From a virus (lineage: Duplodnaviria; Heunggongvirae; Uroviricota; Caudoviricetes), in the IMG/VR virus record IMGVR_UViG_2684623127_000007: a DNA stretch of 64,000 bases, one strand, 5' to 3'. The position numbers were made by a program. Each line of letters begins with the position of its first letter. Within the stretch, counting starts at the first letter, position 1. This document shows, one piece after another, positions 54,001-57,000 of this stretch.

Positions 54001-57000
54001 ACCATATAGCTCTGAAGAGTGATGCGGACATAGCAGATTATAAACTTTACATTTCGAATCTTCTTTGCCTTGTCTACTTTCCTCAATTTTTACTTTCAAT
54101 GAATGCAGAAAAAAAAGATCCCTGATATAACTATCCCTGTCCTCTATCGTCATTCCCGCCCTCAGCGCTCCGACAACCTCATCAGTATTTTCATTTCTCA
54201 CCTCAAATACACTATTTCTCTTATCCATCAGCCCACTTACAAAAGCACTTAGCTCTTGAAAAATTTCCTCAAGCTCATTATTATTTCTGGCACATGAATA
54301 TATAGAGACCATAACATCAAGTTTATCTTGTAATTCAGGAGAAAGAAAGTGATTATGATTAAGCTCACTTACTGATTCCGGAGTCGAAGGGTTACCTCTT
54401 CCTGATACATACATCCATGAATAAAGATTTGCTGAAGAACCACTTGTTGGTAACATATCAAAACCCCCTTAACAAATAAATCCATAAATATTATTGCAAC
54501 TAATATATCTGGATAAAAATATTATATCTTACTTAATACTACACTAATAAGATCCAGCTTTCCTCCGTGATAAGATTGCATGACTTGATGTTCACTCCAT
54601 GAAATATCAGAAACATTATAAGATGATATATCTATTGGATTAAATTCATTTCTCATACGATCATATAAAACATTTGTTTCTGTTGTATCAACAAAAAGAA
54701 TTCCTTTTTTCTCCAGTCTGTCAAACATATCGTAAATAGCCTGTTCAGCTTGTGCTGGTAATGATGGAATATCCAAAAGAGATTCCCCATTTATTTTATT
54801 CATTCTAATACCAATAACATTTCCATTATCATTATATATTTTCTCTGCACTCCCGGAACCATAATACTGATTGAAACAACGAACTTCGCTTGTCACCTCT
54901 TCATGGCTTTGAGATATAGTAAACATCTTCAACACTTTTGTTGTATCTTCCATATCTTCATACACGACAGCATTACCACCTTTACCAATAACATTACCTG
55001 GCACGGGTGATTTATTGTTGCTAACCCTCGGCAACTCTGATTGAGTATAATCCGCTGGAGGTAACTCCGGCTGCGCATAATCCACTGGAGGTAAATCAGG
55101 TCTGTTCGAATGAACAGAGCCTCTTTCTATAGTCGTGCTCACTGGCGATGTATTCAGCATAGCCTCAATTTTTCTGCTAATCTCTCCCTTAGGCCATCCC
55201 AACCTGTGCAACAGATTAGTAAAACAACCACTATGACTTTCTCTTGTAACGCAAAACTTATTATCAGTGACCACAACACGATATGTTCTGTTGCCAACCG
55301 TTACTTGCGTCCCGCTATCAGAGTGAACAGCAGCATCCCTTACAGAGGATAAAACACGATTATCAGGCGAAGTCAGGTTTCTGGTTAAAGAATTCCATGA
55401 ACATCCCAAATTTATAGAAGAGGGCGATAACATACATTTCAACCTTCAAAATAAACCTATCTAATTATTCCTAACAGACATCCCCCATACATGACAACAA
55501 AAACCGGAGCCGGACTCCGGTTTTTGTGAAGCTATCGGGTTACTTCATTTCGCCAATATTTTCCCACTTCCCGTCAGCACGCAGGATTTGCAGCGGTCTT
55601 ACTACACACTGACCCGAGGACGAAAAAAGAGTTCGGGCTGGGAAGAGACAGAAGAGTAGCAATTTCAGAAGCATTCACACCAACATTGAGCTTTTCAGCG
55701 AAAGTGGGCACGAATCATTGCTGGACAGGGTTAAAGGCACTGACTCAATCACTCTTCATACGTGGCTTGATCGATATGAAACAATCCTCAGCTAGAGGGG
55801 GAGCAAGCCGAAAACATTACTCGACTACGCCAGCAAAATCAGGGCAATTCGAAGAAAATTGCCGGACAAACCGCTCACTGACATATCAACGAAAGAGGTG
55901 GCAGCAATGCTAAACACCTACGTCGCAGAAGGTAAAGCGGTTTCCGCAAGAGTAATCAGGTCAACCCTTGTTGACGTTTTTCGAGGGGCAATAGCCGAGG
56001 GGCATGTGGCAACGAATCCAGTAACAACAACCCGTGCAGCAAAGTCAGAAGTAAGGCGCTCAAGGCTGACAGCTAATGAGTATGTCGCTATTTACCATGC
56101 TGCTGAGCACCTCCCCATCTGGCTGAGGCTGTCAATGGATTTAGCTGTCGTTACAGGGCAGAGAGTGGGCGATTTGTGCAGAATGAAGTGGTCAGACATA
56201 AACGATGGTCATCTTCACATTGGACAGAGTAAAACAGGAGCCAAAATTGCCATTCCGCTGGCTCTAACCATTGACGCACTCGACATCTCACTGGTTGATA
56301 CACTACAGAAATGCAGGGAGGCCAGCAGCAGTGAAACAATAATCGCATCAACCTATCACGAACCACTTTCTCCAGCCACAGTATCACGGTATTTAACAAA
56401 GGCGCGAAATGCATCCGGGATCTCGTTTGATGGAGACCCACCGACATTTCATGAACTACGTAGTCTGTCCGCGAGGCTATATCGGAACCAGATTGGCTAC
56501 AAGTTTGCACAACGTCTTCTTGGACATAAATCTGATTCAATGGCGGCGCATTATAGGGACAGTCGCGGGCGGGAGTGGGACAAAATTGAAATCGGATAAT
56601 GATTTTATTTTGACCAATAATGACTTACCAGATTTAACAACTTGATATTTAATAAGATTTTTGAACGAACAACTTCCATGTCAGAAGGAGGATAAAATCA
56701 CAAAAACACATTAAAAATCATTATGTTATTTATACAATTGATTAAATGATAGACTGCAAAACGCGACAAAACACTACATTTAGAGTCACAATTAATCAAT
56801 GAGTTAGATGTGATTAGTGACCTGAGACAGAGCATTAGCGCAAGGTGATTTTTTGTCCTCTTGCGCTAATTTTTTGTCATCAAACATACAGCCAATCAGA
56901 AGAGCATAAAGCTGCCAAGCATTATATGTCTTAGTTTTATGCTCATTTTCATTAAAAAAATATATAATAAGACTAATATCAGTATAAAATATTTATAACA

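What the first reader, a model, noticed from the sequence alone, without database searches (positions are those of the whole stretch)
55497..56599. Recombination scar: tail-operon terminator and about 90 bp of tail-gene 3' end fused to a degraded integrase
55497-55600 is near-identical to 1996-2110 and 59572-59690 (terminator plus the 3' end of the tail-fibre-associated gene), then abruptly becomes a start-less lambda-type int carrying a frameshift and a TAG stop. This marks a past junction between a prophage tail end and another prophage's int end, consistent with tandem prophage collapse next to the nleF/nleH2 cargo.
Basis: seen in the sequence. Interest (0 to 1): 0.45.

Follow-up and report, generated by a model that had tools for sequence, protein, structure and literature searches.

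The report
Fossil phage junction inside effector locus
This is a real but old and already annotated recombination scar in a well-known E. coli O157 prophage, where the last 72 bases of one phage's tail-fibre gene are welded to a dead integrase gene of a different phage; it shows how two sets of virulence genes ended up in one prophage, and is otherwise ordinary.

Summary
Window 55472-55611 (terminator plus the last 72 nt of a Phage_fiber_C tail gene, minus strand) is about 94% identical to 1995-2108 and 59570-59683. Homology stops at 55611. From there a start-less integrase runs to TAA 56597-99, with a 1-nt deletion after 55672 and a TAG at 55793-95.

The integrase is HK022-type (86% aa identity, residues 28-355). 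It is followed by its own complete, unrecombined attP and sib hairpin (56600-56882). The attP core CTTCCATGTCA matches O111 prophages integrated at yfaT, where nleA sits next to attR. So int'-attP-sib-nleA-nleG' is the vegetative gene order of a yfaT-type nleA phage.

The tail-fibre stub belongs to a second unit, tfa'-nleH2-nleF-IS256'-sib, which ends in a lambda-type attR with ybhB host flank. The two att cores differ. I therefore read the scar as an illegitimate inter-phage join (at most 1 nt of microhomology), not an internal deletion of one prophage or a same-site tandem collapse.

The junction is near-identical (99.7% or more) in 419 of 5,426 complete E. coli genomes, including Sakai Sp9, EDL933 and EPEC E2348/69. 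It lies inside the prophage's effector locus. RefSeq annotates both pseudogenes. Low novelty, modest interest.

The parts
55472..55539 (-). Spacer, intrinsic terminator of the tail operon (hairpin CCGGAG-CCGGA-CTCCGG at 55504-55520, flanked by A and T runs over 55500-55525) and the 14-nt gap to the stop codon. This is the distal part of the 140-nt block shared with the two intact tail ends.
   Evidence: Alignment; repeat families D7/D10; RNA fold -22.2 kcal/mol, z = -3.93.
55540..55611 (-). tfa': the last 23 codons plus stop of a Phage_fiber_C (PF06820) tail-fibre C-terminal gene. It reads CVVRPLQILRADGKWENIGEMK*, against the intact ...DGTWENIGGMK*. The N-terminal 66 codons are missing.
   Evidence: PGAP pseudogene EDL933_RS34480, 'missing N-terminus'.
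55611..55612 (.). Breakpoint CACACTG|ACCCGAGG. G55611 could come from either parent, giving 0-1 nt of microhomology. No IS element lies at the joint.
   Evidence: Comparison with intact tfa copies and three intact int relatives, which all read ...TGCTACAGGGACCC. Near-identical junction (99.7% or more) in 419 genomes.
55611..56599 (+). int': an HK022-family tyrosine integrase pseudogene covering residues 28-355. It lacks a start codon and residues 1-27 of the arm-binding domain. The residues corresponding to the lambda-family catalytic set are unchanged relative to HK022 Int.
   Evidence: Translations; BLASTP 86% identity without gaps to HK022 Int; Pfam PF00589, PF02899, PF22022 and partial PF09003; PGAP pseudogene EDL933_RS12000.
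55672..55673 (+). 1-nt deletion that shifts the int' reading frame.
55793..55795 (+). In-frame TAG nonsense codon in int' (GAG in HK022).
56600..56825 (+). Complete, unrecombined attP of the int' phage: P' arm 56600-56672, core CTTCCATGTCA 56673-56683, P arm 56684 to about 56825.
   Evidence: Colinear with annotated HK022 attP. The core is identical to the attL core of the O111 RM9322 prophage at yfaT and to the attR core of O111 95NR1. A 16-nt pattern spanning the core occurs once in the window.
56826..56882 (+). sib/tI-type hairpin downstream of attP.
   Evidence: Aligns to the annotated HK022 sib site. RNA fold -27.8 kcal/mol, z = -7.1.
57260..58585 (+). nleA, cargo of the int' phage. It sits next to attR in yfaT prophages of O111.
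53887..55433 (-). nleF (53887-54456) and nleH1-2 (54522-55433), the cargo lying immediately downstream of tfa' and its terminator.
   Evidence: An intact tfa-nleH arrangement exists in 243 genomes, for example the FORC_042 prophage at torT.
52959..53205 (+). Outer end of the tfa' unit: a fossil lambda-type attR. It comprises ybhB-downstream host DNA (52959-52994, continued at 50478-50516 on the other side of ISEc8), the lambda core TTAGTATAAAAAGC (52995-53008), the P arm and a second sib hairpin (about 53145-53205).
   Evidence: Repeat D8; BLAST to HK022 and FORC_042; match to K-12 EMG2 ybhB-lambda attR.

Best explanation
The feature is a non-functional fossil joint between two different lambdoid phages. 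It is now an internal part of the effector (EEL) region of the ompW-type prophage known as Sp9, CP-933P or PP6.

Phage Y integrated at yfaT. Its vegetative order was tail genes, tfa, nleG, nleA, sib, attP, int. Phage or prophage W had the order tfa, terminator, nleH2, nleF, IS256', sib, lambda-type attR with host flank, and further outward its integration module.

A single illegitimate crossover with 0-1 nt of microhomology joined codon 28 of Y's int to a point 72 nt before the stop of W's tail-fibre C-terminal gene. Either this was an unequal crossover between two colinear genomes, or circular Y inserted into prophage W and homologous recombination in shared late or early genes then resolved the structure. 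Both routes give a unit-length phage with Y's intact tail genes, both cargo sets in series and W's working integration module.

No essential gene was lost. The stub of tfa and the headless int became neutral passengers, and int' later picked up a frameshift and a nonsense codon.

Shown: the anatomy, the two att types, the vegetative order, and the wide and near-identical distribution of the joint. Inferred: the order of events and the crossover mechanism.
For: - Breakpoint and lesions.
- int' is followed by a colinear attP and sib, as in HK022.
- The core CTTCCATGTCA equals the attL and attR cores of O111 yfaT prophages. There, yfaT'-core-P arm-sib-nleA-nleG follows at 94% identity.
- A 16-nt pattern spanning the core is present once in the window, so the core is not used for the present integration.
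- The tfa' unit ends in a lambda-type attR plus ybhB flank, a different core.
- The intact tfa-terminator-nleH arrangement is common elsewhere.
- No IS element lies at the joint.
- The joint is near-identical (99.7% or more) in 419 genomes, including O157:H7, O55:H7, O121:H19, O111:H8 and EPEC O127:H6.
- Sp9 excises by attL x attR recombination, circularises, and its DNA is packaged: PMC2669165.
- O111 strains 95NR1 and 08_3418 hold two places matching the attP-nleA segment, one of them at yfaT. If the other is the ompW-type locus (not checked), Y-type and W-type prophages share cells.
Against: - No extant close parent was found. The closest intact int listed is 87% identical at the nucleotide level, and the closest intact tfa end is 94%. 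The parents are therefore inferred from relatives.
- An IS256 remnant lies between nleF and the lambda-type attR. That attR may therefore not be the original end of the tfa' phage, which weakens the 'different cores' argument.
- The similarity profile to the O111 yfaT prophage is lower on the int/P' side (76-98% per 50-nt window, 86.3% overall by BLAST) than on the P arm/nleA side (94-100%). That could also fit a hybrid att site formed by site-specific recombination.
Confidence: 0.62

Rival explanations
1. Internal deletion of one prophage within a same-site tandem or nested pair. On this view tfa' and int' are the two ends of the same phage. A roughly 40-kb deletion from int codon 27 to the tail-fibre 3' end removed its body. 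The attP after int' is then the hybrid P'OP joint of a dilysogen.
For: A tandem dilysogen has an intact attP-like site between the two prophages, so the topology fits. Similarity to the O111 yfaT phage is lower on the int/P' side than on the P/nleA side, as a hybrid site would give. Only one deletion event is needed.
Against: The outer att of the tfa' unit is lambda-type (TTAGTATAAAAAGC plus ybhB flank). The core next to int' is yfaT-type, and one phage has one core. int' is HK022-family and only 68.5% identical to lambda int at the nucleotide level. The change in similarity is gradual, not a step at the core. The composite is found at ompW or ydfJ, not at yfaT (PMC8112680), so extra transfers would be needed.
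Confidence: 0.2
2. A recent local collapse of adjacent prophages in this strain's chromosome.
For: The window does hold three prophage tail ends and a prophage cluster.
Against: The joint is near-identical (99.7% or more) in 419 complete genomes of several serotypes, and base-for-base identical, with the same frameshift, in EPEC O127:H6. The neighbouring Stx2a prophage is a later insertion into a published attB-in-prophage site at 44874 (PMC8112680).
Confidence: 0.03
3. An IS-mediated adjacent deletion or an assembly artefact.
For: The locus is rich in IS elements: ISEc8, IS256', IS630' and IS3'.
Against: No IS sequence or inverted repeat lies at 55611|55612. The junction is reproduced in hundreds of independent complete assemblies.
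Confidence: 0.03
4. The truncated int is still used. For example, the 246-aa ORF at 55859-56599 (TTG start), which carries the catalytic domain, might act as a helper or regulator.
For: The ORF is open, and the residues corresponding to the catalytic set are unchanged relative to HK022. The sequence is 99.8-100% conserved across serotypes.
Against: The arm-binding domain and part of the core-binding domain are missing. No promoter-like site precedes the ORF on the + strand. The high conservation is that of the whole recently spread element. Some O157 strains delete sequence into int'.
Confidence: 0.04

Closest known systems
Degraded int and tail-fibre pseudogenes in the effector locus of prophage Sp9 (Sakai), CP-933P (EDL933), PP6 (E2348/69), the 'PPompW' of Nakamura et al. 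2021 (PMC8112680)
   Same: It is the same object. Identity is 99.9% across 19 kb to EDL933 and 100% across a 2.5-kb segment spanning the junction. PGAP pseudogenes EDL933_RS34480 and RS12000 cover it, and in Sakai it lies in the region annotated as Sp9. The legend of Fig 4 in PMC8112680 marks degraded int genes in these loci.
   Different: Nothing differs in sequence. The sections of PMC8112680 that I read (Results and Discussion) do not discuss the joint, its attP or the origin of the int stub.
Phage HK022 int-attP-sib module (X51962, AF069308)
   Same: The order int, P' arm, core, P arm, sib is the same. Int is 86% identical at the amino-acid level, and the arms and sib hairpin are conserved.
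   Different: The core differs: CTTCCATGTCA here against TTCACCTAAAGG in HK022, so the target site is different. Here int lacks residues 1-27 and is disabled.
nleA-carrying prophages at yfaT (DUF1175) in O111 strains RM9322 and 95NR1
   Same: The 11-nt core is identical. P arm, sib, nleA and nleG follow in the same order at 94% identity.
   Different: In O111 the att is split into attL and attR by integration, and int is intact. That int is only 86% identical at the nucleotide level to int'.
Illegitimate recombination as in lambda gal/bio specialised transducing phages, and lambdoid mosaicism (established knowledge; not tested here)
   Same: It is a non-homologous joint with 0-1 nt of microhomology falling in the int region. 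The neighbouring unit keeps a lambda attR plus bio-side (ybhB) host flank, as a lambda-bio type excision would.
   Different: Here the partner of int is another phage's tail-fibre gene, not host DNA.
attB-in-prophage sites and prophage-in-prophage integration (Nakamura et al. 2021)
   Same: These are att-type sequences embedded in the same effector locus. The Stx2a prophage that abuts the locus at window 44874 matches the attB-in-PP_1 case described there, although I did not locate the 21-bp attB itself.
   Different: The site next to int' is a phage-type attP (P'OP), not a host-derived attB. I did not identify any prophage integrated in it, but I did not search for one specifically.

Membership tests
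Lambda/HK022-family tyrosine integrase (functional gene) | Integrase catalytic and core-binding domains are recognisable. | tested here: met
   Pfam PF00589 (E = 3.7e-38), PF02899 and PF22022 on the frame-corrected translation. Identity to HK022 Int is 86%.
Lambda/HK022-family tyrosine integrase (functional gene) | The catalytic residues (Arg, Lys, His, Arg, His, Tyr) are present. | tested here: met
   In the gap-free alignment, the motifs GQRVGDL, QSKTGAK, FHELRSL, LLGHKSD and YRD are unchanged relative to HK022 Int. Assigning these motifs to the catalytic residues rests on established knowledge of lambda Int.
Lambda/HK022-family tyrosine integrase (functional gene) | An uninterrupted ORF with a start codon and a complete N-terminal arm-binding domain. 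| tested here: not met
   Residues 1-27 and the start codon are absent. There is a 1-nt deletion after 55672 and a TAG at 55793-95. Only positions 33-69 of the 74-position PF09003 profile match. This is a pseudogene.
Phage_fiber_C (PF06820) tail-fibre C-terminal gene | A full-length ORF of about 89 aa following the tail-fibre N-terminal gene. | tested here: not met
   Only the last 23 codons remain. The intact copy at 59612-59881 scores E = 4.7e-36.
Lambdoid attP (HK022/lambda type) | P' arm, core, P arm and sib in order next to the 3' end of int. | tested here: met
   Colinear alignment with the annotated HK022 attP and sib. The sib hairpin folds at -27.8 kcal/mol.
Lambdoid attP (HK022/lambda type) | Arm-type Int binding sites are present. 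| tested here: inconclusive
   A strict consensus scan found a site only in HK022 itself. The arms align, but binding sites were not mapped.
Active att site of the resident prophage | The core is duplicated at both prophage ends (attL and attR). | tested here: not met
   A 16-nt pattern spanning the core (CCATGTCAGAAGGAGG) occurs once in the window even with 3 mismatches allowed, and a 14-nt core-spanning pattern occurs once in each fetched locus that has it. Sp9's own att is a different, 28-bp core (PMC2669165).
Single prophage with an internal deletion, or a same-site tandem collapse | The att sites flanking the tail end and the int end share one core. | tested here: not met
   The tail-end unit has the lambda core TTAGTATAAAAAGC plus ybhB flank. 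The int end has the yfaT core CTTCCATGTCA. Caveat: an IS256 remnant lies between nleF and the lambda-type attR.
Rho-independent terminator | A G+C-rich hairpin followed by a U run, downstream of the stop codon. | tested here: met
   Minus-strand fold of -22.2 kcal/mol, z = -3.9, followed by UUUUU. The simple consensus scanner did not list it. Function was not tested.

The most novel reading that the evidence does not exclude
The effector locus of ompW-type prophages may be a stack of captured prophage right ends, each still carrying its att relic. Reading outward from the tail genes, these are:
- a yfaT-type attP with its int stub (this finding);
- a lambda-type attR with ybhB host flank;
- a serX-like tRNA-Ser relic;
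- the published ykgJ/ecpE-, yecE- and ompW-type sites.

If so, effector sets accumulate through illegitimate int-by-tail-fibre joins and bio-type aberrant excisions. The same process would create the 'attB-in-prophage' landing pads whose origin Nakamura et al. 2021 left open. The fossil yfaT-type and lambda-type sites could themselves still accept phages.
Probability: 0.35. Interest if true: 0.5.

Novelty: already known. Interest (0 to 1): 0.25.

Why it matters
The scar documents one concrete step by which two type III effector sets (nleA/nleG and nleH2/nleF) came to ride on one mobile prophage that is now present in EHEC and EPEC lineages. Together with the neighbouring att relics, it offers a testable route for how host-derived att sites enter prophage genomes. 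It has no sign of a function of its own. It is useful mainly as a lineage marker for this prophage family and as a caution for prophage-boundary prediction, because an int gene plus an attP here does not mark a prophage end.

Tried and rejected
- I tested whether the int' attP core recurs at the ompW end or elsewhere in the window, which would indicate an active or tandem att. It does not.
- I tested whether the sequence left of the second sib copy is the published ykgJ/ecpE-derived attB-in-PP_2. It is not. Those copies lie at 192-499, 45080-45254 and 47679-47841. The flank is lambda attR plus ybhB DNA instead.
- I looked for a step change in similarity exactly at the core, as a signature of a hybrid att. 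The change is gradual, so the result is inconclusive.
- I looked for close intact parents. None was listed: the best intact int is 87% identical at the nucleotide level and the best intact tfa end is 94%. A chimeric 'reconstructed' tfa-nleH query found only relatives at 95% or less.
- A strict arm-site consensus scan was uninformative.
- The consensus terminator scanner missed the tail terminator, so I folded it directly.
- ARAGORN finds no tRNA in the locus.
- A literature search by old locus tags (ECs1813, Z6022, Z6023) returned nothing relevant.
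Full report
**Where the window comes from.** Window 44874-63949 is 99.9% identical to E. coli O157:H7 EDL933, and a 2.5-kb segment around the finding is 100% identical to dozens of O157:H7 genomes. In EDL933 the region is annotated, left to right, as: ompW' remnant, IS and effector genes (nleG family, espM1), ISEc8, IS256', nleF, nleH1-2, a 72-nt 'phage tail fiber C-terminal domain' pseudogene, a 'tyrosine recombinase, frameshifted, internal stop, missing N-terminus' pseudogene, nleA, a DUF1076 (nleG-family) pseudogene, then intact tail-fibre, Lom and J genes. This is the effector locus (EEL) of prophage Sp9, CP-933P or 'PPompW'. Left of 44874 the window carries an Stx2a prophage. 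This matches the prophage-in-prophage integration at 'attB-in-PP_1' described by Nakamura et al. 2021 (PMC8112680), although I did not locate the 21-bp attB itself.

**Checking the observation.** The three-way alignment and the repeat finder confirm that 55472-55611 matches 1970-2108 and 59545-59683. Identity is 94% over the 90-nt core family. BLAST to another intact copy gives 93.6% over 140 nt, E = 8e-55. The block holds a strong hairpin followed by a U run on the minus strand (-22.2 kcal/mol, z = -3.9). It also holds the last 23 codons plus stop (55540-55611) of an 89-aa gene whose intact copy is Pfam PF06820 Phage_fiber_C. Homology ends at 55611.

From 55611 the + strand reads DPRTKKEFGLGRDRR..., which corresponds to Int residue 28 onward. 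A 1-nt deletion after 55672 shifts the frame, and TAG at 55793-95 replaces a Glu codon. The natural stop is TAA at 56597-99. The frame-corrected product is 86% identical, without gaps, to HK022 Int residues 28-355, and the motifs around the catalytic residues are unchanged. Pfam sees the integrase domains and only the distal part of the arm-binding domain. The breakpoint is 11 nt further right than stated, and the gene is HK022-type rather than lambda-type (68.5% nt identity to lambda).

**What follows int'.** The alignment to HK022 does not stop at the int stop codon. It runs through the whole annotated attP and the sib site, ending in a hairpin of -27.8 kcal/mol (z = -7.1). The arms are conserved but the core differs from HK022. 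An 11-nt block, CTTCCATGTCA (56673-83), is identical to the crossover region of two O111 prophage ends at the yfaT (DUF1175) gene.
- In RM9322, int-P'-core is followed by yfaT sequence.
- In 95NR1, the yfaT remnant and core are followed by P arm, sib, nleA and an nleG gene at 94% identity to the window.

So the window carries P'-core-P unrecombined. The order int', attP, sib, nleA, nleG', tfa, stf, lom, J is the vegetative (circular) order of a yfaT-integrating, nleA-carrying lambdoid phage, which I call Y. A 16-nt pattern spanning the core occurs only once in the window. It is therefore not the att used by the resident prophage.

**What lies beyond the tail-fibre stub.** Downstream of tfa' and its terminator come nleH1-2, nleF, an IS256 remnant and a second copy of the P-arm/sib sequence at 53064-53205 (family D8). 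An intact 'tail fibre N, tail fibre C, terminator, nleH' arrangement exists in 243 complete genomes, for example a FORC_042 prophage at torT. tfa'-nleH2 is therefore the truncated form of a common layout.

Searching the sequence left of the second sib copy (taken from E2348/69, where ISEc8 is absent) gave an unexpected result. It aligns to the lambda attR of the K-12 lysogen EMG2. The alignment covers about 75 nt of host DNA just downstream of ybhB, the lambda core (TTAGTATAAAAAGC at window 52995-53008) and a lambda-like P arm and sib. In O157, ISEc8 (50517-52958, 8-bp duplication CGAAAAAC) splits the host flank. Further left is a relic of the 3' half of a tRNA-Ser, similar to the copy next to hyaA. 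The unit carrying tfa' therefore ends in an integrated-state, lambda-type right end with captured host DNA.

**Distribution.** A 289-nt junction-centred query is covered at 80% or more, at 99.7% identity or higher, in 419 of 5,426 complete E. coli genomes. These include O157:H7 (Sakai, annotated 'prophage Sp9'), O55:H7, O121:H19 and O111:H8. Nearly all other listed hits stop at query position 140, which is the breakpoint. EPEC O127:H6 E2348/69 carries the joint base for base, with the same frameshift, in the same gene order next to ompW'. Sp9 excises by attL x attR recombination, circularises, and its DNA is found in particles (PMC2669165). The scar is therefore an ancestral internal feature of a spreading element, not a local event in this chromosome.

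**Mechanism.** The two sides of the joint belong to units with different att cores, yfaT-type and lambda-type. int' is not a lambda-specificity integrase. This argues against both ends coming from one prophage (an internal deletion) and against a classical same-site tandem pair. The simplest history is one illegitimate crossover between Y's int at codon 28 and a point 72 nt before the stop of the tail-fibre gene of a second genome, W. That could be an unequal exchange between colinear genomes, or an insertion of circular Y into prophage W followed by homologous resolution. The product keeps Y's intact tail genes and cargo and W's cargo and integration functions, and it is only about 4 kb longer.

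Three intact relatives all read ...TGCTACAGGGACCC at the relevant position, and intact tfa copies read ...CACACTGTATC. Only G55611 is therefore shared: a joint with 0-1 nt of microhomology and no IS at the site.

Two caveats apply. An IS256 remnant separates nleF from the lambda-type attR, so that attR may not be the original partner of tfa'. Similarity to the O111 yfaT phage is lower on the int/P' side than on the P/nleA side, though without a step at the core. I put the inter-phage crossover at about 0.6 and an internal deletion in a tandem or nested pair at about 0.2.

**Function.** There is none apparent. The tail stub encodes 23 codons. int' lacks its start codon and the beginning of the arm-binding domain, and it is doubly disabled. 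A 246-aa ORF with a TTG start at 55859 remains open, but it has no upstream promoter-like site on its strand. Some O157 strains have deleted 53999-55672, removing the joint, nleH2 and most of nleF. The two hairpins may still terminate transcription, but this was not tested.

**Comparison with what is known, and novelty.** The object itself is known. RefSeq annotates both pseudogenes. It lies in the much-studied Sp9/PP6 effector locus, and the legend of Fig 4 in PMC8112680 marks degraded int genes in these loci. The Results and Discussion of that paper do not discuss this joint or its attP, and the authors state that the mechanism by which att sequences entered prophages was not resolved. Three details appear to be unreported in what I could read: the yfaT-type fossil attP, the lambda-type fossil attR with ybhB flank, and the tRNA-Ser relic. 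They suggest the locus is a stack of captured prophage right ends. That is an incremental insight into a known kind of mosaicism. I rate the finding 'already known', with interest 0.25.

Noticed in passing
window 52959-53205 and 50478-50516: A fossil lambda-type attR lies inside the effector locus. It comprises about 75 nt of ybhB-downstream host DNA, the lambda core TTAGTATAAAAAGC (52995-53008), a lambda-like P arm and a second sib hairpin. It aligns to the ybhB-lambda attR of the K-12 lysogen EMG2. It is not among the three attB-in-prophage sites described in PMC8112680.
   Followed up: partly
window 50517-52958: ISEc8 is inserted into the captured ybhB flank, with an 8-bp target duplication CGAAAAAC (50509-16 and 52959-66). 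It is absent at this site in E2348/69.
   Followed up: yes
window about 50351-50440: A relic of the 3' half of a tRNA-Ser gene plus downstream sequence. It is about 80-84% identical to the annotated tRNA-Ser, which in one genome lies next to hyaA. ARAGORN calls no tRNA here. It may be another fossil att or host flank.
   Followed up: partly
window 192-499, 45080-45254, 47679-47841: Three copies of sequence similar to the K-12 ykgJ/ecpE intergenic region (85%, 71% and 71% identity). They correspond to the published attB-in-PP_2 and its relatives. One copy lies in the Stx2a phage end and two in the effector locus.
   Followed up: partly
window about 1900-44874: A complete Stx2a prophage (stx2a, Q, lysis genes, 428-aa integrase at 43548-44834) abuts the effector locus at 44874. 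EDL933 lacks it. The arrangement fits the published prophage-in-prophage integration at attB-in-PP_1.
   Followed up: partly
window 53999-55672 (absent in L003, strain NCCP 13914): NCCP 13914 carries a secondary 1,674-bp deletion that removes the tfa'::int' joint, nleH2 and most of nleF. O157 strains 114, 141 and OkiPb01687 show a similarly shortened int' match (starting at query 59-62) and probably carry it too. Its right end (55673) coincides exactly with the 1-nt frameshift site of int'. This coincidence is unexplained.
   Followed up: partly
L001, L005 (EDL933 2.28-2.35 Mb): In the EDL933 assembly this prophage cluster has ompW' on one side and a truncated int next to ynfA on the other, together with a duplicated head-tail gene block. 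This is consistent with the prophage-mediated ompW/ydfJ inversions mentioned in PMC8112680.
   Followed up: no
window 55540-55674 (minus strand): A 44-aa chimeric ORF reads from antisense int' across the joint into the tail-fibre stub. It is probably meaningless.
   Followed up: no
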